Assembly: GCA_021513695.1 (NCBI GenBank)
Contig: CP084166.1
Coordinates: 2,080,001 to 2,144,000 of the forward strand
Reading direction: 5' to 3'
Length of the DNA stretch: 64,000 nucleotides
DNA from: Candidatus Heimdallarchaeum aukensis
Lineage (GTDB): Archaea > Asgardarchaeota > Heimdallarchaeia > Heimdallarchaeales > Heimdallarchaeaceae
Numbering within the stretch: position 1 is the first letter of the stretch; each line of letters begins with the position of its first letter. Made by a program: the position numbers and the translations under genes. Of the stretch, positions 5,456 through 63,079 are shown piece after piece. Below the pieces are notes generated by a model. The model was not told where the DNA came from and did not search any database. It worked only from the letters and a program-made list of their open reading frames with translations.

Positions 5456-6648
5456 CTTAGAGTTCTCCTTAAAATATTTTCAAGTGTATCAAGGAAAACA
5501 TTAGTTTCTTTGTTTTTACTTAAATAAAAAACTGCTTTAGAAGAGTTAGTTATAATATTTCTGTAATTTTGTCTAGTCACAGGAGAGACAACCATACATG
5601 TATCAGCATAAACCTTTATACCCTTTTTAGTCAATTCTTTTACTATTGAAACTGTCTCAATATCAGTTAGAACTTTCCTTGAAGTAAAAATCATTATATC
5701 TACATCAGATTTTTTTTGTTTGCTCTTAACAACGTTATAAATCATTTTTATTTCTTTTTTTGAAGCGTGGGGGCAACCTATTGCAATCAAATCAATATTA
5801 TCTTGTTCTTTAAATCTTTCATAGATTGCTTTTTTTTCTTCTTCAGTAAAGTGAATTGTTTCTGTTAAATCCTCTTTTTTAATTTTCTTATATTCTGGTG
5901 TGAAGTGTTCTACATGATACATTGCTACGCTTCCTGATGCAGCCATTGCTGCAGATAGACTCTTTGCTTTTTCTATAGACAGTTGTTTTATACCCCTAAA
6001 GAAAGGTATTTTTCCTCCTTGATTCTCTCCAAACCAAAACCCTAAAACTGAAAAATCTGCGAAGGACTCTAATGCTGCATCTACTTCTATTAATACCTCT
6101 GGTTTACGATTTTCTGGTAAATGTAATCCATATTCTGCAGTAAGCCCTGTTAACGCTGAAGCTAAAGATGAGGGCCCTCCTTCACGATTTGTTCTTGCTC
6201 CAAAATAACTATTAGCCATTGAAACAGCAGAACTCTCACTCCAAGCAACATGTTCTCCAAATTTTGGTTCGTGCCCTACTAAATAGGGCGTGCATGTTAA
6301 AGTATCTTTTATCCCTAGCTTTCTATACTCTTCAATAATCTGTATTTGCTTTTTAGAAAATAAACTATCAATGCCCATCTCTTTGTATCTGCCCATGTCC
6401 ATTCCTGCTGGATTTAACCACGAAGGGATCTTAACTTTCAAATTGTCTTTATTTATCATGTCAAAAAAAGAAAATATTGCATCACCTACAGTTAAATAAG
6501 AGACTCCTGCAATTTGAGCACTATTTACAGAAATAAGCTTCTCTGCACCATTTACTTCTCCAATCTTAACTATTAGCTGCAGCATTTTAGAAAGAGCTTC
6601 CCCTTTTTCTCCTTCTAAAATTCTTTCTTGTTCTTTGGTTAGATACAT
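5452..6648 (-). CDS. aconitase X catalytic (large) subunit, DUF521 family
   Basis: 398-aa protein with an AcnX large-subunit-like sequence. It is translationally coupled to the DUF126 gene. Confidence 0.7.
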   Translation of the reverse strand: MYLTKEQERILEGEKGEALSKMLQLIVKIGEVNGAEKLISVNSAQIAGVSYLTVGDAIFSFFDMINKDNLKVKIPSWLNPAGMDMGRYKEMGIDSLFSKKQIQIIEEYRKLGIKDTLTCTPYLVGHEPKFGEHVAWSESSAVSMANSYFGARTNREGGPSSLASALTGLTAEYGLHLPENRKPEVLIEVDAALESFADFSVLGFWFGENQGGKIPFFRGIKQLSIEKAKSLSAAMAASGSVAMYHVEHFTPEYKKIKKEDLTETIHFTEEEKKAIYERFKEQDNIDLIAIGCPHASKKEIKMIYNVVKSKQKKSDVDIMIFTSRKVLTDIETVSIVKELTKKGIKVYADTCMVVSPVTRQNYRNIITNSSKAVFYLSKNKETNVFLDTLENILRRTLR

Positions 6649-12557: not shown

Positions 12558-13052
12558 ATGGAACATGTTTATCTCATTTATGACCACTCTGTAAGAGAAT
12601 TTAAAGAACCTGCAGATCAAAAAAAGTTCAAATCAATAACTCAAGGCTCTCCCGATGAAATAAGTACAAGTTTAGATAGTGTGGGCGTTGATGGTTTGTT
12701 AATATTTAACAGAGAAAGAAATGAATGGAACTTAATATTCGCAAAAAGCTTAGGATTGGTTGCTCAAAGAACGGCAAGAAGGCAAGCAGATACAATAAGC
12801 AGATCAGGATTTTTGTTATCTTCAGGAGAACGGGTGGGGATACGTAGTAGATTACAGCAATTAACAGAAGATAATATAGGGGATTTACATAAAACTGTGC
12901 AGCAAAAATATATTGTTTCTGATTTAGTTGGTCATGTGGGAGATTCAAGAAGTGAACGTTTTCCAGCTAAAGTCTATGCAACAAAAGAATTAGAAGAAAA
13001 AAGAAATGAGGTTGAGAAAGAGCCAAAACAAACTACAAAAGAAAATATATAA
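12558..13052 (+). CDS. hypothetical protein
   Basis: 164-aa ORF with no recognizable motif. Confidence 0.35.
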   Translation: MEHVYLIYDHSVREFKEPADQKKFKSITQGSPDEISTSLDSVGVDGLLIFNRERNEWNLIFAKSLGLVAQRTARRQADTISRSGFLLSSGERVGIRSRLQQLTEDNIGDLHKTVQQKYIVSDLVGHVGDSRSERFPAKVYATKELEEKRNEVEKEPKQTTKENI

Positions 13053-13323
13053 GACGGATAATGTAGAGTAAACACATTGATTACAACCTTTATTTTTTTG
13101 CTTTAAGGCTCCTATCCTATAGCTAAATTCAGTAAAATTAAGAAACCACAGTAATTTCTTCATTGTAAGACTGTTTTAGCATTGAAACTTTTTATTGGTT
13201 TTTCTTTTAATAGATGCCTGTAATAGCATCTGTCCCTTAAGATTTATATATAGTTTAAAAAATAAGATAATCTGTTGAGACACATTTATTAACTAGAACG
13301 AACTTACATTTTTTGGTGTTTAA

Positions 13324-14220
13324 ATGTATCAAACACAAGTAAATCCTTTTGAATTATCAAAAAGAAAGATATCTGAAAGTTCAGGAAAAATAGCTAAATT
13401 GCTTATAGCTGTTGTTGCGCTATTGTTTGTACTAATAATCCTTGTGATGATAATGCTAGCTATAGCAGGAGGAAGTTCTGTTGTTATTGACCCAAGTAAT
13501 CCTTATGCGGCAGTTGGTGCAATGTTTAGTTCCTTTATTGTTCTAGGTATCTTTATTCTTTTAATTGCTTTAGCCTTTATTGTCATTCAAATAATGGTGC
13601 TAGTACAATATTACAAACTTGGACAAGGCTTTTCAGAAGTTGCTAATATGGACCCCTCCCTGCCAAATGCGAAAAATATTAGTTTTGGAATCTATGGCTA
13701 CATCATGGGTTATGTTTTAGGCCTTATTATTCCTGGAACCTTTGGAAAAATAATGGCACTTTTAGGTACTTTCTCATTAGCTGCAGGTTTCTACTTCATT
13801 TATGAAACGTTTGAAGATTTTAGAAAACAAGGTAGATTTGGTAAACCCGCATCTAAAAAATTGTTTATTGCTGTGGCTTTTACACTAATAGGCAATATAA
13901 TGAACTTTGTTAACAGCATTGCTATGATCGGTGTTGGCGGTTTCTTTGGTTTAATTGGTTTTATTCTTTTGATAATTGGATTAAAAGATCTAGAGCGAGA
14001 TATTCTGTTGGTTACACCAACGGAAACAGTTCCTACACAACCACCCACACAAACCCCCTATCAAGCTCCAACTTCTGTACCCACTTCTCCAGCTCCTGAA
14101 CAATCTAATCAATCACCACAGACGCAAGACGCAACCCAAGTAAAGTTTTGTCCCAACTGTGGAACAAAAAATGAATTACAAGATAAGTTTTGCATATCTT
14201 GTGGAACAAAACTAGATTAA
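13324..14220 (+). CDS. polytopic membrane protein with a Pro/Thr-rich linker and a C-terminal double C-x2-C zinc ribbon
   Basis: Multiple TM segments. Linker TPTETVPTQPPTQTPYQAPTSVPTSPAPEQ. C-terminal KFCPNCGTKNELQDKFCISCGTKLD. Confidence 0.5.
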   Translation: MYQTQVNPFELSKRKISESSGKIAKLLIAVVALLFVLIILVMIMLAIAGGSSVVIDPSNPYAAVGAMFSSFIVLGIFILLIALAFIVIQIMVLVQYYKLGQGFSEVANMDPSLPNAKNISFGIYGYIMGYVLGLIIPGTFGKIMALLGTFSLAAGFYFIYETFEDFRKQGRFGKPASKKLFIAVAFTLIGNIMNFVNSIAMIGVGGFFGLIGFILLIIGLKDLERDILLVTPTETVPTQPPTQTPYQAPTSVPTSPAPEQSNQSPQTQDATQVKFCPNCGTKNELQDKFCISCGTKLD

Positions 14221-14280
14221 GTTCCCATCTTTTATTTCTTTTTTTAAAAATAGTTGCTTTTTTAACTTCATTGATTGCTC

Positions 14281-14320
14281 GATAGTGATAGTGCTGATAG
14301 TGATAGTGATAGTGATAGCA
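14281..14320. repeat. (GATAGT)n hexamer microsatellite, about 7 units, ending in AGTGATAGCACT
   Basis: Read directly: gatagtgatagtgctgatagtgatagtgatagtgatagcac. Confidence 0.9.
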
Positions 14321-14467
14321 CTTTTTAAACCAAAATCGAAATGTTTTGAGAAAAAAGTTATTTAAATTAATTTAAGGTTAGTCCTAAAAAAACATACTGA
14401 CAGCTTTTTCGATTATCAACCAAGGATAGAATTTTCTAAATGGGGTGTTTTCTTTTTTTATGGTTTT

Positions 14468-15064
14468 TTATTCTGTATTGCTTTCGCCCATGGCCGCACT
14501 TAAAATTTCTACTTCCTGAGCTACGGACTTGATTTTAGAAGCGATAACTCTCTTCTTTTCTATTTCTTCTTGATCTTTAAGCTCTGGGAGATACTTTCCT
14601 ATAGCCGCAGTTGTTCGTATTCTTACACTATAAGGAAAAATGGTTTTATTACGACTTTTAAGTTCAGCAAGGATGCCCACGGTCCAACGTTCATTCTCTT
14701 CATCTTTGTGAATGTGAAATTTTGTTACATCAACATCACACAGGTTAAGAATTGATGAAAGAAAAGTTTCTATATCCTCATTATTAAATTGACTAATATC
14801 TAAAATCTCTCCTTTTTCAAATTCTTCTTCATGAAAATTGTATATCTGTTTTTTATCATGTATCTGTGAAAAGCGTTTATCTCTCTCGGTTCTTTTTTTA
14901 GCTGGTTGCTTTTTTCCTGTTTCATACTTATTTCTGTTACGAGCGACCCAAACACTAACAGCTTTTCCTGAACCAAGACCTATAATGGGAGCGATTTCTG
15001 AGTATGTATATCCTTGTTTTTTTAGCTCTTCTATCTTATTCCATCGCTCTTGACCTTGTAACAT
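14468..15064 (-). CDS. helix-turn-helix DNA-binding protein (transposase/terminase-small-subunit/sigma-region-4-like N-terminal HTH); role unknown
   Basis: The N-terminus (ERWNKIEELKKQGYTYSEIAPIIGLGSGKAVSVWVARNRNK) is a classic HTH. The gene is flanked by related inverted motifs at 14309-14320 and 15121-15135. Confidence 0.5.
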   Translation of the reverse strand: MLQGQERWNKIEELKKQGYTYSEIAPIIGLGSGKAVSVWVARNRNKYETGKKQPAKKRTERDKRFSQIHDKKQIYNFHEEEFEKGEILDISQFNNEDIETFLSSILNLCDVDVTKFHIHKDEENERWTVGILAELKSRNKTIFPYSVRIRTTAAIGKYLPELKDQEEIEKKRVIASKIKSVAQEVEILSAAMGESNTE

Positions 15065-15626
15065 TATTTTTCATCTTTTTTGGTTTTTTTATTTAGACTA
15101 CCATTCAATTACTATCATTTTTTGATAGTGCTATCACTTTCATATAACATTTTACTTGCAACTATAAAAATTTTTACTAGTTAATAAAATCCTTGCGCAT
15201 AGTATTAGGCTTTTTGTCGGAATATTTTATATATGTCTAGCTAAAGCTACCTAGGCTGCTTCTAAGTTTACATATACTATGACTGTTTGATATTATCCCT
15301 TAAATTCAAGATTTGAATGTTAGTTAAAATGAAATTCTAAATCTTAGTTAATAACGTTGTATTATAAATAGACAAAATAAGCAAAAATAGACCTTTATAA
15401 TCTATATTTTAACCAATTAATCTAAATTCGTTTTGTTATACGTTTAATTATATTATTCCAAGTTTTCTATAACGCCTATTTCTCGATGAAAGTTAAATAT
15501 TAAACGTAAAAGGACTTTTATTATTAGGCTTTTAATGTAGACTTTTTACTTTTTTGAAAGGAGAAATAATTAAAAAGATGTTACAAACCTATTCTCTATT
15601 AGGAGGTAATTTACATACAGGTAAGT

Positions 15627-16622
15627 TTGGCTATCTTATCTGGTGGTGATTCGAAGCGTTATAAGCAGAAAGGTAAACTTATAGATAAAGCATTAATGGA
15701 AGTAAATACCAAGCCTCTGCTTTTTAAAATAGTTGAAGATGGTCTTAATAATTACGACAATGTTATTGTATCCCTGAACAACAATAAAAGGAAAAAAAAG
15801 TATGAAAGTGTATTAAAACCCCTACTGAAAAGCGATAATGTTGAGTTTGTTGAAGATGATAAAGAAATTAATTTTATTGGAGTAGGAAAGGGAATTGCTT
15901 CTGTACTATTGAAATTATTGCCAAAAACTTCAATCCAATTCATTCCTTGTGATCGCCCTTACCTTGATGTGAAATTACTAAGACAGTTAGAGACAGTAAA
16001 AGAGGGAGTAACAATACTTATTTATCAAAGTGGATTGATTGAGCCACTGCTTGCTCTATATGCTGAAAACTATGCATTTCCTCCACTCTTTGTTTTTTCT
16101 TTTGATCTAAGCAGAGCTGACGTGTTTATCCGCTTAGCTCCTCGAATCAGGCTTTATAATGCAACAGAAATAATTGAGATGAATGATCTCAGATCTAGTT
16201 TTTTCTTAAATGTAAACACTCCAAGGTTAACAGCTTCAGACCTCTCTTTAGAAAAAGAGAAATATTTCTTACCAAAATCTAAAATTGTGGAAAGAAAAAA
16301 TCTTGAACCTCTTGATAGTATCGATTTAGATGGTGATCCTACAGAGAGAATTCACCATTTGATTGAAAGAGAACACTTTTTTTTAGCATTCTTAGTAACA
16401 AAATACCTATTTCGAAGTCAAGTTTTTGACTTTGACCTCTTTTCTTACTATGTCAACTTAACACTAAAGTCAGAGTACGAATATTGGATGGAGAAAAATA
16501 TACCTTTCTTAGGATTACATGCGCTGCAAGATTTATCACATACTTTTCAGAATAATGTGTCTAATGAAATTGACAATGAAATAAAGACTCTAAAAGAAAA
16601 AATAGGTATAAAAAAGAAATAA
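15627..16622 (+). CDS. MobA-like nucleotidyltransferase (molybdenum cofactor guanylyltransferase-like) with a roughly 130-aa C-terminal extension; TTG start
   Basis: The N-terminus (AILSGGDSKRYKQKGKLIDKAL) matches the MobA LAGGxSxRMG..DKAL motif. It is adjacent to the Mo-bisPGD formate dehydrogenase genes. An AGGAGGT lies upstream. Confidence 0.55.
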   Translation: MAILSGGDSKRYKQKGKLIDKALMEVNTKPLLFKIVEDGLNNYDNVIVSLNNNKRKKKYESVLKPLLKSDNVEFVEDDKEINFIGVGKGIASVLLKLLPKTSIQFIPCDRPYLDVKLLRQLETVKEGVTILIYQSGLIEPLLALYAENYAFPPLFVFSFDLSRADVFIRLAPRIRLYNATEIIEMNDLRSSFFLNVNTPRLTASDLSLEKEKYFLPKSKIVERKNLEPLDSIDLDGDPTERIHHLIEREHFFLAFLVTKYLFRSQVFDFDLFSYYVNLTLKSEYEYWMEKNIPFLGLHALQDLSHTFQNNVSNEIDNEIKTLKEKIGIKKK

Positions 16623-16658
16623 AGACTCTAAAAGAAAAAATAGGTATAAAAAAGAAAT
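16583..16658. repeat. perfect 38-nt tandem duplication (2 copies) spanning the stop codon of the MobA-like gene
   Basis: aaagactctaaaagaaaaaataggtataaaaaagaaat occurs twice back to back. The second copy would re-encode KTLKEKIGIKKK after the TAA. Confidence 0.9.
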
Positions 16659-16663
16659 AAAGA

Positions 16664-19375
16664 TTATTCTTTTGTCACTTTTACCGCACAGACTTTAAGT
16701 TCTGGTATTTTTGCAAGAGGATCAAGTGCATCATTTGTTAAGAGGTTAGCAGCTGATTCTTTAAAGTGGAAAGTCATAAAAACAACTCCTTCTTTAATTT
16801 TGTCAGTGACTTTTACTTCTGTTAGTAGTTTACCTCTCCTTGATTCAATGATTACTTTGTCACCCGTTTTTATTCCTAATCTTTTTGCATCTTTGACGTT
16901 TATTTCACTTCTTTCAATTGGTTTACGTTGGTGTATTCCTTCTACCCTACGTGTCATTTCTCCCGTATGGAAATGGAATAAATTGCGACCCGTAGTTAGA
17001 ATTAGGGGATATTCATCATCAGGAAGCTCATCTGGATCCAAGTAATCAATGGCATGGAATTTTCCTTTCCCTCTAGAGAATTTATCCTTATGTAAAATTG
17101 GAGTACCAGGATGGTCATCAGATGGACATGGCCACTGTAAACCTCCATTTTCTACTCTCTTATAACTTATTCCTCCATAGATTGGGGTCACCTGAGCTAT
17201 TTCATCCATTATTTCACTGGGAGAGTTATAGTGTTTTTCAATTCCAAAACGATTAAGCATAATCTCTAAGATTTTCCAATCAGGTAATCTGCTTCCATCT
17301 GTTTCTATAGCTTTTCTAACTCTCTGTACCCTTCTTTCAGTATTGGTGTAAGTACCATCTTTTTCTGCAAATGATTGTCCAGGGAGAATAACATCTGCAT
17401 ATTTTGCAGTTTCAGTAATAAATAAATCTTGAACAACTAAGAACTCCACCTTCTCAAGAGCTTCTCTAACATGGTTAATATTTGGGTCGCTAATAACAGG
17501 ATTTTCACCCATGATGTAGATCCCTCTAATGTTTCCTTTATGGGCTTCGTTCATTATTTCAACAACAGTCAACCCCGCTTTGTCATCAAGTTTATCTACT
17601 CCCCAGAACTCTTTGAATTTCTTGATGTTTTTTTCATCAGTTACTTTTTGATAACCTGGGAAAACATCAGGTAAACCACCTAGATCACAAGCTCCTTGAA
17701 CATTGTTTTGACCACGTAGTGGATTAACTCCAGTACCTGGTTTTCCAACATTTCCAGTTAACATAGCCAAATTAGCTAAACTTAGAACATTATCTGTCCC
17801 AGTAGTATGTTGAGTAATACCCATGGCATAAACTATAGCAGCAGTTTTTGCAGTAGCGTAAAGTGAAGCAGCTTTTTTCACATCTTCCTCATCAACATTC
17901 GCAATCTTACACAGTGAAGAAAAGTCTATCTTACTTATCTTTTCTTTCAATTTCTCAAAGTCTTCTGTCCTATTCTCAATAAACTCTTTATCATATAATT
18001 CTTCGTCAATAATGTACTTAATCATAGCATTAATGAGGGCAACATCGCTACCTGGTCTCTGAGACATATAAATTTCAGCATAATCTGCTAATTCAATTCT
18101 ACGAGGATCTGCAACAATCAATTTTGTTTTGCCTTTTCTAACAGCTTGCTTAATTTTTATTCCTATTACGGGATGCGCCTCTGTTGTATTGCTCCCAATA
18201 ATAAATATAACTTCAGCATTATTAGTTAAATCTGAGACACTGTTTGTCATTGCTCCTGAACCAAAAGCTTTGACAAGTCCTGTGACTGTTGAGGCATGAC
18301 AAAGTCGAGCACAGTGGTCAACGTTATTCGTTCCAATAGCTGCACGGGAAAGTTTTTGCATCAGATAATTCTCTTCATTTGTACATTTAGCAGAAGTAAG
18401 GAAAGCAAGAGAATCAGGGCCCGTTTCACTGATAATTTCCTTAAATCGTTTTTCAATAAGATCGAAAGCTTCTTCCCAGCTTACCTCTACGAAATTTCCA
18501 TTTTTCTTGATTAGTGGAGTATTCACTCTATCATGATGATGGACATATTCCCACCCATATCTCCCTTTTACACAAAGTGACAATCCATTAATACTATCTC
18601 TATGTGATTGGACATCTACGATTCTATTTTGTTTTGGATCAACCAATAGTTCTAGTTGACAACCAACTCCACAGTAGGTACATGTTGTTACTGTTTTCTT
18701 TAATTCATAAGACCGACTTTTTGTAGTTTTGATAGATTTGCTAACTAATGCTCCAACTGGACAGACTTCTACACAGTTCCCACAAGCAACACAACCTGCT
18801 TCTTCAAAACTTCTACCAAAACCAGCACTAGGATAGATGTCAAAACCTCTGTCTTGCATGGAAAGAACATTACATACTTGTATCTCATCTGTAACACGAA
18901 CACAAAGCTGACAACGGATACAGGCGGAATAATTGAGTACAAAAAATTCATTCACTTCTACTAGGTCTGTAGTTGGTTTTTTACCCTCTAGTTTACTTAA
19001 GCGGCTCTTTGGAACATACTGATAGGCTAGTTTTTGTAGAGTGCAAACACCATTTTTATTACACACTATACAGTTTAATGGGTGAGAACGAAGAAGTAAT
19101 TCAATATTAGTTTGACGAGCACGATGAATTCGTTCATTATAGGTGGTAACCACCGCATTAGGACGAACAGGTGTAACACAAGCGGCAACTAAATTAGGAG
19201 CTCCTTCAACTTCAATAACACAAATACGACAAGCACCAGACGGTTTTAATTCTTCCATATGACACAAAGTAGGGATCTCTATTCCAGCACGAGTGATAGC
19301 TGAAAGATATGTGTCATCCTTTTTACATAAGATTTTTTGACCATCAACAATAATAGAAATTTTTTCTTCTGACAT
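16664..19375 (-). CDS. fdhA: formate dehydrogenase catalytic subunit (molybdopterin/tungstopterin oxidoreductase with N-terminal 2Fe-2S and 4Fe-4S domains), Cys-type, no selenocysteine
   Basis: N-terminal plant-type ferredoxin (CRICVIEVEG) and NuoG-like Fe-S cysteines. The MopB domain has the FDH active-site context VDHCARLCHAS. There is no in-frame TGA. Confidence 0.8.
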   Translation of the reverse strand: MSEEKISIIVDGQKILCKKDDTYLSAITRAGIEIPTLCHMEELKPSGACRICVIEVEGAPNLVAACVTPVRPNAVVTTYNERIHRARQTNIELLLRSHPLNCIVCNKNGVCTLQKLAYQYVPKSRLSKLEGKKPTTDLVEVNEFFVLNYSACIRCQLCVRVTDEIQVCNVLSMQDRGFDIYPSAGFGRSFEEAGCVACGNCVEVCPVGALVSKSIKTTKSRSYELKKTVTTCTYCGVGCQLELLVDPKQNRIVDVQSHRDSINGLSLCVKGRYGWEYVHHHDRVNTPLIKKNGNFVEVSWEEAFDLIEKRFKEIISETGPDSLAFLTSAKCTNEENYLMQKLSRAAIGTNNVDHCARLCHASTVTGLVKAFGSGAMTNSVSDLTNNAEVIFIIGSNTTEAHPVIGIKIKQAVRKGKTKLIVADPRRIELADYAEIYMSQRPGSDVALINAMIKYIIDEELYDKEFIENRTEDFEKLKEKISKIDFSSLCKIANVDEEDVKKAASLYATAKTAAIVYAMGITQHTTGTDNVLSLANLAMLTGNVGKPGTGVNPLRGQNNVQGACDLGGLPDVFPGYQKVTDEKNIKKFKEFWGVDKLDDKAGLTVVEIMNEAHKGNIRGIYIMGENPVISDPNINHVREALEKVEFLVVQDLFITETAKYADVILPGQSFAEKDGTYTNTERRVQRVRKAIETDGSRLPDWKILEIMLNRFGIEKHYNSPSEIMDEIAQVTPIYGGISYKRVENGGLQWPCPSDDHPGTPILHKDKFSRGKGKFHAIDYLDPDELPDDEYPLILTTGRNLFHFHTGEMTRRVEGIHQRKPIERSEINVKDAKRLGIKTGDKVIIESRRGKLLTEVKVTDKIKEGVVFMTFHFKESAANLLTNDALDPLAKIPELKVCAVKVTKE

Positions 19376-59432: not shown

Positions 59433-61010
59433 TTACGCACTCCCATAACCTCCTCCACCCGGAGTTTCAATAATTACTATATCTCCTTTCTTAATTTTTC
59501 TAGTAGTCTTTGATGGAAGTATTGAGCGATTATCTGATGAAATAATAATATTTTTGCCTTTTCTCCCAGGCATTCCTCCAAATAATCCAAAAGGAGGATA
59601 ATTTCTTCTCTCGCTTTGAATAGAAAGAGTGGCTTCTTCAGCAAGTAATTTTATTGACCGTCTAATACCGTTGCTACCTGACCATTTCCCTTTTCCTCCA
59701 GTGGACTCTAAAATAGAATATTCAAGGACTCGTAGGGGATAATAAGTCTCCAAAACTTCGATAGGTGTATTGCGAGTATTAGTCATATGGCTATGTTTTG
59801 CACTTGGGGGAGAATAATCCTTTCCTGCTCCAATACCTCCGGCAATAGTTTCATAGTAAGTAAATTGATGACCTTTATGTGTTCCTCCAATAATAATGTT
59901 ATTCATTGTTCCACTACTCGCTGCTGGAATATCATCTGGAAAAATCTGGGAAAAAACACCTAACAAAACATCAACAATTCGTTGGCTAGTTTCAACATTT
60001 CCTGCAGCTACTCCTGCAGGAGGAATAGGATCAACTAATGTTCCTTTTCTAGTGATAACCTTAAGAGGTTCATATAATCCATAATTTGTTGCGTAATCTC
60101 TAGGAACTAAAGCTCGAATAAGATAATAAGTAGCAGAAAGGGTTACTGCCAGTGGAGCGTTGATATTTCCCTCCACTTGTTTAGAACTCTTAGAATAATC
60201 AACAATAAGCTCCTCTCCATACCTTTTAACTTCAGCAGTAATAGGAATAGGCTTATCTGTTACTCCATCATCATCCATATAATCAGTGAAAGAATAGGTC
60301 TCTCCTTCAGGAATACTTTGAATTAAGCGAAGAGAAGCAGAACGAGAACGATTAATTAAAAACTCAATAACCTTTTGAACTCTGGGTAAGGAGTACTTGG
60401 ATAATAAAGATTGAAATTTTTTTTCTCCAATCTTTGTAGAAGCAAGCTGTGCTTGAAGATCTCCTCTACGTTCGTAAGGAACCCTCACATTTTCAAGAAA
60501 AACGTCTAACCATTCTTTATTCATTTTTCCCTTTCTTTCGATAAGTGTGGGTTTAATAACAAAACCTTCTTCGTGAAGAAGATACTTTCCTCCAGGCATA
60601 CTGCCTGGTACAACTCCTCCAACATCTGCATGATGACAACGATTAGCAATATATCCTACAAGCTTTTGTTCAAAAAAGATAGGTTTGACGATCGTTATGT
60701 CAGGTAGATGCGTACCTCCAGAATAAGGGTCATTGGAAATATATATGTCACCATCTTCTATATTGCTCTCACCAAAATGGTCGATAATTGCTTTAACAGA
60801 CTCGGGCATAGCTCCAAGATGAACAGGAATATGTTCTGCCTGAGCAAGAAGTCGACCTTGACTATCCATAATTGCACTGGAAAAATCTAATCTGTCTCGA
60901 ATGTTGGGGCTAAAAGCAGAACGTTGAAGAACTATGCCAGTCTCTATAGCAACGTTACGAAGAGCTTGGTTAATAACCTGAACTTCAATTAAATTAAATT
61001 GATCACTCAT
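59433..61010 (-). CDS. hyuB: hydantoinase B/oxoprolinase family protein (HyuB/OplaH B subunit)
   Basis: N-terminal family signature NVAIETGIVLQRSAFSPNIRDRLDFSSA. It overlaps the upstream hyuA by 4 nt. Confidence 0.75.
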   Translation of the reverse strand: MSDQFNLIEVQVINQALRNVAIETGIVLQRSAFSPNIRDRLDFSSAIMDSQGRLLAQAEHIPVHLGAMPESVKAIIDHFGESNIEDGDIYISNDPYSGGTHLPDITIVKPIFFEQKLVGYIANRCHHADVGGVVPGSMPGGKYLLHEEGFVIKPTLIERKGKMNKEWLDVFLENVRVPYERRGDLQAQLASTKIGEKKFQSLLSKYSLPRVQKVIEFLINRSRSASLRLIQSIPEGETYSFTDYMDDDGVTDKPIPITAEVKRYGEELIVDYSKSSKQVEGNINAPLAVTLSATYYLIRALVPRDYATNYGLYEPLKVITRKGTLVDPIPPAGVAAGNVETSQRIVDVLLGVFSQIFPDDIPAASSGTMNNIIIGGTHKGHQFTYYETIAGGIGAGKDYSPPSAKHSHMTNTRNTPIEVLETYYPLRVLEYSILESTGGKGKWSGSNGIRRSIKLLAEEATLSIQSERRNYPPFGLFGGMPGRKGKNIIISSDNRSILPSKTTRKIKKGDIVIIETPGGGGYGSA

Positions 61011-63079
61011 TTAATCTCCTCCAAAATAATGTAACCTAATCTGTTGATTCTGCCAAAAACACTTGGGGGGATAACCGTAGTAGAATCAAGCTGATCAATA
61101 ATTGCAGGACCCTCAATAATATTGCCGTCTAACAATTTCGATTTATCAAAAACAGGAGTAGAAAAAAGGTCGCCATAAAAGTTGACCTCTCGACTGGATT
61201 TATAAGCTGAATCAGGAGGACGAGAAGAACCTTCAGGAAGTTTAGATAATTTGAGTTTGGGCACTGTCCCTCTGGCTTCAACCTTAACATTAACAACTTC
61301 TACTTGTAAATGCTTGTCATGCCAAGAGTAATTTTGATGATGAAGAGAATGGAAACTGTCAACAGCTTCTGACAAAATAGAACCAGAAATAGGATAATTG
61401 ATAGGAATAGAAAGAGTGTCAGACTGACCTAAATAGCGAAGGTCTAAAGAATATGAAAAGACTTTTTCTTCTTCTTTTACATTTTCAGAAGACAAAATAG
61501 ATGATAACTCTAATTTTAAAGATTCAAGAGTATTGTTAAGATCGAGAAAATCTATGTCCTCAACAAGCTGAAGATAAGACTGGACCTTCTCGTGTTTAAT
61601 ATCACTAGCCAGTAATCCATAAGCCGACCATGCACCTGGAAAAGGAGGAACAATAACACGTTTAATGTCCAACTCTTTAGCTATATCCCAAACTTGCATA
61701 GGACCCGCACCTCCAAAACCAAGGAGAGAAAAATCGCGGGGATCTAAACCACGCTGAACAGTAACAACACGAATAGCTTGTGAAATGTTGTGATTAAGAA
61801 TCTGACGAACAGAAAGAGCTAAAGAAGTAACAGAATCGATTTCATAATCATAGGAGGAATTTCTTATTTCATCAAGTAATGATTGTAAAACAGAAAAGGA
61901 TTTGTTGACGTCAATATCCAAATTACCAGCAAAATTGCTAGGGTGAACATAACCTAAAACCATATTCGCGTCAGTTAAAGTAACTTTGTCTCCACCTAAA
62001 GAATAACATGCAGGACCAGGAAAAGCTCCTTGAGACTCAGGACCAACAGTTAACAATCCATCACTAAACTTAGCAATAGAACCTCCACCACTACCAATAG
62101 TCTCAACATCAGCCATAGGTGAAACAATCGGAAAACCGCCAAAATAGCGAGAGTTTAAAATGATAGGACTATCGATCAAGGCAGAAACATCAGTACTAGT
62201 ACCGCCAATATCTAAAGAAACAAGATGGGAAAGAGAAAGATGGTCAAGAGTCTTAGAAGCAGCAAGAACACCACCAGCAAGACCAGAATAAAGAGTTTGA
62301 ATGCCATTACGAGTGATAGTAGAAACATCACTCATACCAGTGTTAGATTGCATAATCAGAAGAGGAGAAGAAATGCCGATATCAAGAAGCTTGGAACGAA
62401 TAGTGGAAAGATAACGAGAAATAACAGGACTAACTTTAGCATTGATGATAGTAGTAACAGAGCGCTCGTATTCACCAATAGAAGGACAGATCTCAAAAGA
62501 GGGAAAGGAAAGAAAACCATGAGAACTAAGAAGAGAATGAAGATGCTGTTCATGAGAAAAATTGCGAAAAGAAAAAAGAAGAGAAATAGCTAAAACAGAA
62601 ATAGAACGAGAATGAAGGAGAGAAGAAAGAGAGTCTAAATCAAAGGTAAGAGGACGAATTACAGAACCTGAAGAATCAAGGCGCTCATCAATCTCTATTA
62701 ATAAATCAGAAGAAAAATCTAAAGGATAAGATTGAGAAAATTTGAGATTATAAAGATCAGAACGTTGTTGGCGACCAATCTCAATAATATCTTTGAAACC
62801 TTTAGTAGTCAAAAAAGCTATAGGAGGACATTTACCCTCTAAAAAAGCATTAGTACCGATAGTTGTTCCATGAATAAGCAATTCAATGTCAGAAGGACCA
62901 AAATCAAAAAGATGCATAACCTCTTGTAATCCAGAAATGATTCCAATACTAGGGTCATGAGGAGTAGTAGCAGTTTTCCAAGCTCTAATTTGACCATCAC
63001 TAGAAAGTATAATAAAATCAGTAAAAGTACCACCTGTATCGATACCAATACGAATAGGAGGACGAAGAGAAGAAAGCAT
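61007..63079 (-). CDS. hyuA: hydantoinase A/oxoprolinase family protein (HyuA, ASKHA-fold ATPase)
   Basis: The N-terminal IGIDTGGTFTDFIIL is an actin-like ATPase phosphate-1 motif. The 690-aa size fits the family. Confidence 0.75.
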   Translation of the reverse strand: MLSSLRPPIRIGIDTGGTFTDFIILSSDGQIRAWKTATTPHDPSIGIISGLQEVMHLFDFGPSDIELLIHGTTIGTNAFLEGKCPPIAFLTTKGFKDIIEIGRQQRSDLYNLKFSQSYPLDFSSDLLIEIDERLDSSGSVIRPLTFDLDSLSSLLHSRSISVLAISLLFSFRNFSHEQHLHSLLSSHGFLSFPSFEICPSIGEYERSVTTIINAKVSPVISRYLSTIRSKLLDIGISSPLLIMQSNTGMSDVSTITRNGIQTLYSGLAGGVLAASKTLDHLSLSHLVSLDIGGTSTDVSALIDSPIILNSRYFGGFPIVSPMADVETIGSGGGSIAKFSDGLLTVGPESQGAFPGPACYSLGGDKVTLTDANMVLGYVHPSNFAGNLDIDVNKSFSVLQSLLDEIRNSSYDYEIDSVTSLALSVRQILNHNISQAIRVVTVQRGLDPRDFSLLGFGGAGPMQVWDIAKELDIKRVIVPPFPGAWSAYGLLASDIKHEKVQSYLQLVEDIDFLDLNNTLESLKLELSSILSSENVKEEEKVFSYSLDLRYLGQSDTLSIPINYPISGSILSEAVDSFHSLHHQNYSWHDKHLQVEVVNVKVEARGTVPKLKLSKLPEGSSRPPDSAYKSSREVNFYGDLFSTPVFDKSKLLDGNIIEGPAIIDQLDSTTVIPPSVFGRINRLGYIILEEIK

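What the first reader, a model, noticed from the sequence alone, without database searches (positions are those of the whole stretch)
14270..15140. HTH-protein gene bracketed by a (GATAGT)n microsatellite and matching inverted motifs
Downstream of the minus-strand HTH gene lies gatagtgatagtgctgatagtgatagtgatagtgatagcactttt. Upstream, in its promoter region, lies ctatcattttttgatagtgctatcacttt. The segments AGTGATAGCACT (14309-14320) and AGTGCTATCACT (15123-15134) are near-perfect reverse complements of one another. GATAG-TG-CTATC is itself a spaced palindrome. This looks like either a small mobile cassette whose terminal inverted repeats flank a DNA-binding gene, or an autoregulatory operator system with binding sites at both gene ends. 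The flanking intergenic regions are unusually long (about 250 nt and 560 nt).
Basis: seen in the sequence. Interest (0 to 1): 0.5.

Follow-up and report, generated by a model that had tools for sequence, protein, structure and literature searches.

The report
Self-regulated archaeal HTH gene with operator arrays
A small DNA-binding protein gene in an Asgard archaeon is flanked by clusters of the short motif TGATAG that stay in place in related genomes, and these are most likely the protein's own binding sites for repressing its gene, which is an ordinary kind of circuit but in a protein family that has not been described.

Summary
A (GATAGT)n array (14281-14322) and a TGATAGTGCTATCA palindrome plus half-sites (15097-15136) bracket a 198-aa HTH gene (14468-15064, minus strand). 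The window is Ca. Heimdallarchaeum aukensis.

It is not a mobile cassette. The gene stays in the same neighbourhood (MobA-like and FdhA-like genes) in five Heimdallarchaeaceae genomes. The inverted 12-mers do not enclose the promoter, and there is no transposase or target-site duplication.

Comparison supports the operator reading:
- All five orthologous promoters keep an invariant BRE/TATA block (TAGTAAAAATTTTTATA).
- A 26-27 nt variable gap follows.
- Then come TGATAGCACTATCA and further TGATAG half-sites.

The downstream array keeps a 4+2-repeat layout in three Heimdallarchaeum genomes, although neutral sites are only 54-71% identical. It is shorter in L001 and absent in L003.

Distant relatives (about 38% identity, and short HTH-only proteins) carry a co-varying motif, TGATAAC. 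It sits at their promoters and just after the HTH-coding segment, sometimes inside coding sequence as Asp-Asn repeats. The motif clusters nowhere else in any locus examined.

Best reading: an undescribed, Asgard-associated HTH repressor family. The promoter site, at about +4 to +17, autoregulates the gene. The 3' array is an auxiliary site cluster whose role is inferred only. No binding has been demonstrated.

The parts
14468..15064 (-). Gene for a 198-aa protein with three parts: an N-terminal three-helix HTH (aa 1-50), a Lys/Arg-rich linker, and a C-terminal alpha-beta-beta-beta-alpha domain of unknown fold.
   Evidence: ORF. It is 100% identical to a hypothetical protein of Ca. Heimdallarchaeum aukensis. 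No curated family reaches threshold.
15163..15179 (-). Putative core promoter. On the gene strand it reads TAGTAAAAATTTTTATA, i.e. a BRE-like AGTAAAAA followed by the TATA box TTTTTATA (15163-15170).
   Evidence: This 17-nt block is invariant in the three most divergent orthologous promoters and in L007 and L008. Calling it BRE/TATA is an inference from the archaeal promoter consensus; the transcription start site is not mapped.
15123..15136 (.). Primary operator. On the gene strand it reads TGATAGCACTATCA, two inverted TGATAG half-sites separated by 2 nt. It lies 26 nt downstream of the TATA box, at about +4 to +17 by inference.
   Evidence: It is the only exact TGATAGNNCTATCA in the window. 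It is invariant in five orthologous promoters with a fixed 26-27 nt gap from the TATA box.
15111..15117 (-). Additional half-site TGATAGT, 19 nt downstream of the first half-site.
   Evidence: Invariant in all the orthologues. The 18-20 nt spacing also holds in the TGATAAC relatives.
15097..15103 (-). Degenerate half-site TGGTAGT. The same position reads TGATAGC in endolithica and TGATAGT in L008.
14281..14322 (+). Downstream array of six GATAG(T/C) hexamers, arranged 2 + GCT + 4 on the + strand. All of them are inverted relative to the direct half-sites at the promoter. I read it as an auxiliary operator cluster.
   Evidence: The 4+2 layout is conserved in L007 and L008 while the flanks have diverged. 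A shorter homologous cluster is present in L001. The array is absent in L003.
14386..14392 (-). T7 tract on the gene strand (within CAGTATGTTTTTTT). It is the probable terminator of the HTH transcript, which would put the array outside the mRNA.
   Evidence: The tract is conserved between aukensis and endolithica, and partly in L001. Its terminator role is inferred from the known oligo-T termination signals of archaea.
14239..14245 (+). T7 tract after the convergent Zn-ribbon membrane-protein gene (13324-14220), and its probable terminator.
   Evidence: inference.

Best explanation
The gene encodes a member of an undescribed HTH DNA-binding family found in Heimdallarchaeaceae chromosomes and on unassigned metagenome contigs, some of which look like mobile elements. 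Its cognate site is the hexamer (T)GATAG(T/C).

- Promoter site. A dimer binds the inverted pair TGATAG-CA-CTATCA, which lies 26 nt downstream of the TATA box. By the usual archaeal geometry this covers about +4 to +17. Further protein binds the flanking direct half-sites. This would block RNA polymerase recruitment after TBP/TFB binding, giving negative autoregulation.
- Downstream array. The six-hexamer array about 150 nt past the stop codon lies between the probable terminators of two convergent genes. It is a second cluster of the same sites. It most likely acts as an auxiliary operator that holds extra protein and cooperates with the promoter site about 825 bp away, by looping or a higher-order complex. 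It may also block read-through from the convergent gene.

Shown here: the motif, its exclusive clustering at this gene, its conservation, its position, and its co-variation with the protein subfamily. Inferred: that this protein binds it, that the effect is repression, and what the 3' array does.
For: 1. Clustering. GATAG clusters occur only at the two flanks of this gene in the 64-kb window. The same holds for every orthologous locus: L001, L003, L007 and L008.

2. Promoter footprint. In the three most divergent orthologues (63-70% protein identity) the upstream region is conserved in only three islands: TAGTAAAAATTTTTATA, TGATAGCACTATCAA and TGATAGT. The gap between TATA and palindrome is 26-27 nt in all.

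3. Constraint above the neutral rate. Four-fold degenerate sites between aukensis and endolithica are 54-71% identical. The array nevertheless keeps four repeats, a spacer and two repeats in aukensis, endolithica and L008, inside a diverged spacer. It is identical in three aukensis assemblies, so it does not behave like a slipping microsatellite.

4. Co-variation.
- Full-length relatives P0004 and P0005 (38-39% identity) carry TGATAAC, not TGATAG, in the same layout: a TATA box, then a 6-2-6 palindrome, then more sites up to the ATG.
- They have a second cluster about 150-200 nt past the stop codon.
- Short HTH-only relatives P0009, P0010 and P0012 have GATAAC arrays abutting their TATA box and/or just after the HTH-coding segment.
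- Neither motif clusters in the other subfamily's loci.
- The site consensus is aaTGATAGT(G/A) against aaTGATAAC(G/A).
- The predicted recognition helix reads AVSVW in all GATAG loci and AVRVW, AVRVF or ALKVW in the GATAA loci.

5. DNA-binding domain. The N-terminal domain is a confident three-helix HTH.

6. DNA-level rather than RNA-level recognition. In L013 and L015 the arrays lie upstream of the TATA box. RNA folds of the window elements are not significant.
Against: - There is no binding or expression data, and the transcription start site is not mapped.
- Co-variation rests on essentially two or three independent clades.
- The 3' array is absent in L003 and shorter in L001, so it is dispensable and its function is the weakest link.
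- In L001 the array lies upstream of the inverted Zn-ribbon gene, so it may serve a neighbour there.
- A 6-bp repeat period is too short for independent side-by-side HTH binding on one face of the helix, so the occupancy pattern is unknown.
- The whole aukensis genome could not be scanned, so a wider regulon or other arrays are not excluded.
Confidence: 0.7

Rival explanations
1. Module derived from a mobile element and acting in cis. The HTH protein and its hexamer arrays would be a centromere-like or iteron-like unit (a binding protein with its site array next to or inside its own gene, as with sopB-sopC or parS inside parB). The Heimdallarchaeaceae chromosomal copy would be a domesticated version, with the 3' array as the main functional site and promoter binding as secondary.
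For: - Short relatives lie on contigs made of strings of tiny unannotated ORFs, which is typical of viruses or plasmids.
- P0004 lies next to a gene of more than 2,200 aa and a GHKL-ATPase gene.
- In several members the arrays sit directly after, or inside, the gene for the binding protein.
Against: - There is no ParA, other partition NTPase, or replication initiator next to the gene in the window.
- There are no relatives or motif pairs in 2.9 million viral contigs.
- The promoter palindrome is the most conserved element and is present in all the orthologues, whereas the 3' array is lost in L003.
Confidence: 0.12
2. The 3' array is an operator for a neighbouring transcription unit, not for the HTH gene. 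The unit could be the Zn-ribbon membrane-protein gene, or an unannotated + strand transcript starting near 14281 from the TATA-like TTTAAAAATA at 14244-14253.
For: - In L001 the array lies about 130 nt upstream of the orthologous Zn-ribbon gene on the same strand.
- In aukensis and endolithica an A/T-rich element ends 27 nt before the first GATAG on the + strand, the same spacing as at the HTH promoter (my reading).
Against: - In aukensis, endolithica and L008 the Zn-ribbon gene is convergent, so the array lies 3' of it.
- The A/T-rich element doubles as that gene's T-rich terminator and is not conserved in L001.
- A + strand transcript would meet a T5 tract straight after the array.
- The 17-codon ORF across the array has no start codon in L007 or L008.
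- There is no Rfam match.
Confidence: 0.1
3. Small mobile or invertible cassette whose terminal inverted repeats flank the HTH gene.
For: - There is an exact 12-bp inverted repeat, 23 nt at 83%, flanking the gene.
- Gene order around the HTH gene differs between lineages: the Zn-ribbon gene is inverted in L001, and the 760-aa/165-aa block is on the other side in L003.
Against: - The same neighbourhood is kept in five genomes.
- The gene is single-copy.
- There is no recombinase or transposase domain.
- The inverted-repeat arm at 15120-15142 lies between the TATA box and the gene, so the cassette would exclude its own promoter.
- There is no target-site duplication.
- The orientation is the same in three assemblies.
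- The inverted repeat is fully explained by repeated half-sites.
Confidence: 0.03
4. Neutral microsatellite plus a chance palindrome, with no function.
For: The genome is AT-rich and full of short tandem repeats (79 TRF rows). With one mismatch allowed, the 12-mer pair is matched in 7 of 100 shuffles.
Against: - The layout is conserved across species while neutral sites are 54-71% identical.
- The motif clusters only at this gene.
- The motif co-varies with the protein subfamily.
Confidence: 0.02

Closest known systems
Archaeal repressors whose operators lie just downstream of the TATA box and overlap the start site (MDR1 of Archaeoglobus fulgidus, LrpA and Phr of Pyrococcus furiosus). Recalled from the literature, not tested here.
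   Same: The palindromic operator sits immediately downstream of BRE/TATA in the regulator's own promoter. The predicted effect is to block RNA polymerase recruitment, giving negative autoregulation.
   Different: The protein family is unrelated (those are DtxR-, Lrp- and winged-helix-type). Here there are extra direct half-sites and a second array beyond the 3' end of the gene. Binding has not been demonstrated.
Regulators that polymerise on arrays of short repeats: Fur on GATAAT hexamer arrays (the Fur box, or the TGATAAT-N-ATTATCA 7-1-7 form) and the omega repressor of pSM19035 on WATCACW heptad arrays. Recalled, not tested here.
   Same: The sites are arrays of 6-7 bp units in direct and inverted orientation. 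The hexamers GATAGT and GATAAC closely resemble GATAAT, and the CTATCAC repeats contain ATCAC.
   Different: The protein has no similarity to Fur or to ribbon-helix-helix proteins. There is no metal-binding domain. The resemblance is in site architecture only.
Auxiliary operators downstream of the promoter that cooperate by DNA looping or act as roadblocks (lac O2 inside lacZ, gal OI inside galE, and the LacI roadblock at O3, see PMC3711431 listed).
   Same: There is a primary operator at the promoter plus a second cluster of the same sites hundreds of bp downstream. In relatives the second cluster lies inside coding sequence.
   Different: In the window the second cluster is beyond the whole gene, about 825 bp away, and is a six-copy tandem array. 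Neither looping nor a roadblock has been shown.
Pfam HTH_28 / HTH_23 / Terminase_5-type (transposase- or terminase-like) helix-turn-helix domains.
   Same: It is a three-helix HTH of about 50 aa. The best, sub-threshold Pfam matches are Terminase_5 (E = 0.027) and HTH_28 (E = 0.13).
   Different: All scores are below the gathering cut-offs. The C-terminal domain has no match.

Membership tests
Autoregulated HTH repressor with an operator in its own promoter | A sequence-specific DNA-binding domain | tested here: met
   AF2 gives a three-helix HTH for residues 1-50 with pLDDT 79-90. Sub-threshold HTH_28 and Terminase_5 hits cover the same residues.
Autoregulated HTH repressor with an operator in its own promoter | A conserved dyad-symmetric site within the regulator's own core promoter | tested here: met
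   TGATAGCACTATCA is invariant in five orthologous promoters, 26-27 nt after an invariant BRE/TATA block.
Autoregulated HTH repressor with an operator in its own promoter | The site specificity tracks the protein (a cognate pair) | tested here: met
   TGATAG is found with AVSVW helices and TGATAAC with AVRVW-type helices in ten loci. Neither motif clusters in the other group's loci. This amounts to only two or three independent clades.
Autoregulated HTH repressor with an operator in its own promoter | The protein binds the site and lowers transcription | not testable with these tools
   This needs EMSA or footprinting and in vitro transcription or a reporter.
Transposon or insertion sequence with terminal inverted repeats | A transposase or recombinase catalytic domain | tested here: not met
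   No such family was found in Pfam, NCBIfam or PHROGs. There is no DDE-like invariant triad in the alignment.
Transposon or insertion sequence with terminal inverted repeats | Variable location or multiple copies, and a target-site duplication | tested here: not met
   The neighbourhood is syntenic in five genomes. The gene is single-copy in the window. No duplication flanks 14307 and 15142.
Slippage-prone microsatellite | Copy number varies between close strains or species | tested here: not met
   The array is identical in three aukensis assemblies. The same 4+2 layout is present in endolithica and L008, which differ only by point changes and spacer sequence.
Partition centromere with a centromere-binding protein | An adjacent partition NTPase (ParA, ParM or TubZ) | tested here: not met
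   The neighbours are a Zn-ribbon membrane protein, a MobA-like transferase, FdhA-like and NuoF/E-like proteins, and hypothetical proteins.
Archaeal replication origin (ORB elements beside orc1/cdc6) | An adjacent Orc1/Cdc6 gene and ORB-type repeats | tested here: not met
   No AAA+ initiator lies nearby. The repeats are 6-bp units, not ORB-like. The GC-skew sign simply follows the coding strand.
Fur family | A Fur-type winged-helix and metal-binding protein | tested here: not met
   There is no Fur/PF01475 hit at E up to 1.
Any Rfam RNA family | A covariance-model match | tested here: not met
   No match at E up to 1 in 13000-16800.

The most novel reading that the evidence does not exclude
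The HTH domain and its GATA(G/A)(T/C) hexamer arrays form a self-contained module that acts in cis and circulates on Asgard-associated mobile elements. The binding-site array is kept immediately after the HTH-coding segment, and is even written into coding sequence as Asp-Asn(-Val-Ile-Thr) repeats. The Heimdallarchaeaceae chromosomal gene would be a domesticated copy whose 3' array nucleates a higher-order nucleoprotein structure (centromere-, iteron- or boundary-like), not merely assisting repression.
Probability: 0.15. Interest if true: 0.6.

Novelty: new member of a known kind. Interest (0 to 1): 0.4.

Why it matters
To my knowledge, very few transcription factor and operator pairs have been proposed for Asgard archaea, the closest prokaryotic relatives of eukaryotes.

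This locus gives a concrete hypothesis that can be tested cheaply:
- a 198-aa protein;
- a 14-bp palindrome;
- a six-hexamer array;
- a natural specificity swap, TGATAGT against TGATAAC, paired with Ser against Arg in the predicted recognition helix.

The proteins can be made recombinantly even though the organisms are only in enrichment culture.

It also defines a protein family absent from Pfam and NCBIfam. In that family, binding-site arrays recur at a fixed place relative to the gene, including inside coding sequence.

Tried and rejected
- Mobile cassette: rejected on synteny, single copy, no transposase, no target-site duplication, and an inverted repeat that lies inside the promoter.
- Micro-ORF. 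The array reads (M)LDSDSADSDSDSDSTF on the + strand, but there is no start codon in L007 or L008, and L001 has a different 35-aa frame.
- Relic of a paralogous 'HTH-B' gene in the 247-nt spacer: no tblastn or six-frame trace.
- RNA structure: z-scores from -0.1 to -2.4 and no Rfam hit.
- The bacterial promoter and terminator scan is uninformative for an archaeon.
- PDB sequence search. The only hit, 8vd6 'CAP repeat', matches only helices 1-2, once in each of its five repeats, and says nothing about function.
- Wider homologue searches. Word-indexed searches found only 3 and then 2 clusters. A search with the HTH-domain alignment found nothing. Full HMMER found 10 proteins.
- Locus scans. The genome-contig scan found only H. 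endolithica. The metagenome scan found one 1.2-kb contig. Three viral-contig scans found nothing.
- Literature. No paper contains the motif strings, and the genome paper does not discuss this locus.
- Regulon. At up to 2 mismatches the palindrome pattern gives 8 hits against 3.7 expected. By the ORF coordinates, the best of the remaining hits (62161-62174, one mismatch) lies inside an ORF. None of them was examined further, so no regulon is evident in the available DNA.
Full report
**What is in the sequence**

The window is from Ca. Heimdallarchaeum aukensis, an Asgard archaeon. The 198-aa product of the minus-strand ORF 14468-15064 is 100% identical to a hypothetical protein of that genome.

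Downstream of the gene lies an interrupted hexamer array at 14281-14322. It has six GATAG cores in one orientation and ends in GATAGCACT.

Upstream, at 15123-15136, lies TGATAGTGCTATCA. On the gene strand this reads TGATAGCACTATCA, two inverted TGATAG half-sites separated by 2 nt. A further half-site is at 15111-15117 and a degenerate one at 15097-15103.

The 12-mer AGTGATAGCACT occurs exactly twice in 64 kb, at 14311-14322 (+) and 15127-15138 (-).

Several tests show this is more than chance:
- Clusters of at least 3 GATAG occur nowhere else in the window.
- Only 0.7% of Markov simulations gave two such clusters, and none gave a cluster of six.
- GATAGTGATAG at up to 1 mismatch gave 7 matches against 1.16 expected, with 0 of 100 shuffles reaching 7.

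The intergenic spacers are 247 and 562 nt against a median of 45. That is long but not unique.

**The protein**

Residues 1-50 fold as a confident three-helix HTH with pLDDT 79-90. Pfam gives only sub-threshold HTH_28 and Terminase_5 hits, and NCBIfam and PHROGs give nothing significant.

An exhaustive HMMER search of 1.84 billion representatives found only ten proteins:
- the query's own representative, P0001;
- two full-length relatives, P0004 and P0005 (38-39% identity);
- four short HTH-only proteins;
- three proteins with 4-8 tandem copies of the HTH.

**Not mobile**

Orthologues were recovered from two Heimdallarchaeaceae metagenome lineages (L001, 70% identity; L003, 63%), from H. endolithica (L007, 91%) and from a third Heimdallarchaeum-like contig (L008). 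In L001, L003 and L007 the gene lies near the same MobA-like transferase and FdhA-like genes; L008 is too short to show its neighbours. Local rearrangements have occurred.

Other evidence points the same way:
- There is no second copy in the window.
- There is no transposase-like domain and no relative on viral contigs.
- I saw no target-site duplication.
- The upstream arm of the inverted repeat lies between the TATA box and the gene, so an element bounded by the repeats would lack its promoter.

**The promoter footprint**

Aligning the three most divergent upstream regions leaves only three conserved islands: TAGTAAAAATTTTTATA, TGATAGCACTATCAA and TGATAGT. I read the first as BRE plus TATA by comparison with the archaeal consensus, which is an inference.

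The gap between TATA and palindrome is 26-27 nt in all five loci, although its sequence varies. With a TATA box centred near -26/-27, the palindrome falls at about +4 to +17. That is where archaeal repressors such as MDR1, LrpA and Phr are known to block polymerase recruitment (recalled knowledge, not tested here).

One to three further TGATAG half-sites follow. The first of them is always 18-20 nt after the first half-site.

**The 3' array**

The layout is as follows:

| Genome | Array on the gene strand |
|---|---|
| H. aukensis | CTATCA x4, GCA, CTATCA, CTATCG |
| H. endolithica | CTATCA CTATCA CTACCA CTATCA, CAATTA, CTATCA CTATCG |
| L008 | CTATCA x4, CAAGTA, CTATCA CTATCG |

The surrounding spacer is poorly conserved, and four-fold degenerate sites in the three adjacent genes are only 54-71% identical. 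The array is therefore constrained and does not behave like a slipping microsatellite. It is also identical in three aukensis assemblies.

L001 keeps a shorter cluster, GCACTATCACTATCACGATAGCCTATCA, about 95 nt after its stop codon. L003 has none, and an HhH-GPD gene abuts the stop codon there. So the array is old but dispensable.

A conserved T7 tract (14386-14392 on the gene strand) and a T-rich tract after the convergent Zn-ribbon gene suggest that the array lies between two terminators, in DNA that is little transcribed. This is an inference.

**Co-variation across the family**

This is the strongest argument that the motif belongs to this protein.
- P0004 (L009) and P0005 (L012) have TGATAAC, not TGATAG, in the same design: a TATA box, then TGATAA-TG-TTATCA or TGATAACGTTATCA, then further palindromes and direct half-sites up to the ATG.
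- About 200 nt past the P0004 stop codon lies a second cluster of three 33-nt units, each with TGATAACGTTATCA plus TGATAACGC. It lies inside the next gene.
- That next gene encodes a 411-aa paralogue with the same N-terminal HTH. The array is translated as DNVITQNDNANDNVITKNDNANDNVII. L012 begins the same way.
- All five Asp-Asn pairs in that array use GATAAC, against 2 of 16 elsewhere in the locus. Recent tandem duplication could explain this on its own.
- P0009 (L013) has five direct CGATAAC repeats abutting GTTTATAAT upstream, plus four GATAAC repeats in the gene just after the HTH segment.
- P0010 (L015) has the same design with three plus three repeats.
- P0012 (L014) has two TGATAACGTTATCA palindromes plus half-sites in the gene.

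In every locus the motif clusters only at this gene, and neither subfamily's motif clusters in the other's loci.

The compiled sites give aaTGATAGT(G/A) against aaTGATAAC(G/A). The predicted recognition helix reads AVSVW in all the GATAG loci and AVRVW, AVRVF or ALKVW in the GATAA loci. These are only two or three independent clades, so the Ser/Arg to G/A link is a hypothesis.

**Interpretation**

The most likely reading (confidence about 0.7) is an undescribed HTH repressor family with cognate hexamer sites. In the window the promoter palindrome and its half-sites mediate negative autoregulation.

The role of the 3' array is less certain. I favour an auxiliary operator cluster that loads extra protein and cooperates with the promoter site about 825 bp away. 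The distance is about 760-975 bp in the other loci. This would be analogous to lac O2 or gal OI. The array may additionally act as a roadblock to convergent read-through.

Site arrays with 6-bp units recall Fur on GATAAT hexamers and the omega repressor on heptads. That is a resemblance of architecture, not of family membership.

**Rivals**

- An element-derived centromere- or iteron-like module (0.12). The contexts of the relatives look like mobile elements, but there is no partition or replication partner here, and the promoter site is the best-conserved part.
- The array serves a neighbouring transcription unit (0.10). It lies upstream of the inverted Zn-ribbon gene in L001 but 3' of that gene in the three Heimdallarchaeum genomes.
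- A mobile or invertible cassette (0.03).
- A neutral repeat (0.02).

**Limits**

No binding, start-site or expression data exist. The complete genome could not be scanned for further sites because the collection scans were capped. The C-terminal domain remains unassigned.

**Verdict**

This is a new member of a known kind of system, an autoregulated HTH repressor with primary and auxiliary operators. It belongs to a protein family absent from the curated libraries searched here (Pfam, NCBIfam, PHROGs) and so far seen only in Heimdallarchaeaceae genomes and unassigned metagenome contigs, and it comes with a clean natural specificity swap. Interest is 0.4.

Noticed in passing
L009 5644-6879 (array at 5880-5966); L013 3154-3192; L014 3172-3273; L015 1013-1039: In relatives, the putative binding-site arrays lie inside coding sequence, in the linker just after the HTH domain. 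They are translated as Asp-Asn-rich repeats (DNVITQNDNAN..., DNKSDNNDNKSDN). In L009 all five DN pairs in the array use GATAAC, against 2 of 16 elsewhere in the locus. This looks like dual-use DNA serving as both operator and codons.
   Followed up: partly
L009 1-4824 and 5001-6879; L012 841-1747: P0004 and P0005 are each followed, with an overlap of about 40-60 nt, by a second gene that has the same N-terminal HTH. In L009 this paralogue is 411 aa with a C-terminal region that matches no Pfam family; in L012 it is cut off by the contig end. In L009 the pair lies divergent from a gene of more than 2,200 aa and near a GHKL (HATPase_c_3) gene. This may be a mobile element or a defence island.
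   Followed up: partly
window 16578-16663: A perfect 38-nt tandem duplication (2.3 copies, 100% match) spans the last codons and stop of the MobA-like gene (15627-16622) and the spacer before the convergent FdhA-like gene. TRF finds no such repeat in the H. endolithica locus, so it looks like a recent, aukensis-specific duplication.
   Followed up: partly
window 13324-14220 compared with L001 6874-7416: The Zn-ribbon membrane-protein gene next to the array is inverted in L001 relative to the window, and the L001 copy lacks the first 114 residues (42% identity over the rest). In L003 the 760-aa/165-aa gene pair is on the other side of the HTH gene. Rearrangement breakpoints therefore cluster around this gene.
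   Followed up: partly
window 15215-15260 (gene strand, about 40-95 nt upstream of the TATA box); L001 5840-5880; L007 2810-2870: A second set of conserved non-coding blocks (TTCCGACAAAAA[G/A]CCT[A/C]AT and AGCTTTAGCTAGAC-like) lies upstream of the HTH promoter in aukensis, endolithica and L001, but not in L003. These could be a binding site for another factor.
   Followed up: no
window 15480-15626: The 150 nt upstream of the MobA-like TTG start are almost identical between aukensis and endolithica. In aukensis they contain a 23-codon ORF (ATG at 15579) preceded by AAAGGAGAAAT, but endolithica has CTG at that start position.
   Followed up: no
P0006 (1557 aa, L016 2001-6674), P0008 (436 aa), P0011 (393 aa); PDB 8vd6: Some proteins carry 4-8 tandem copies of this HTH-like unit. 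Helices 1-2 of the domain match each repeat of the PDB entry 8vd6 'CAP repeat' (a perfect 33-residue repeat). No GATAG or GATAAC clusters were found around P0006, only one cluster of three GATAA cores near the 3' end of the gene.
   Followed up: partly
window 15123-15136 and 14281-14322: TGATAG fits the eukaryotic GATA-factor consensus WGATAR. The protein is an HTH, not a GATA zinc finger, so I treat this as coincidence.
   Followed up: no
window 62161-62174: TGATAGGACTATCG, one mismatch from the operator pattern TGATAGNNCTATCA. By the ORF coordinates it lies inside the 690-aa ORF 61007-63079. It is probably chance, since 3.7 matches at up to 2 mismatches are expected.
   Followed up: no
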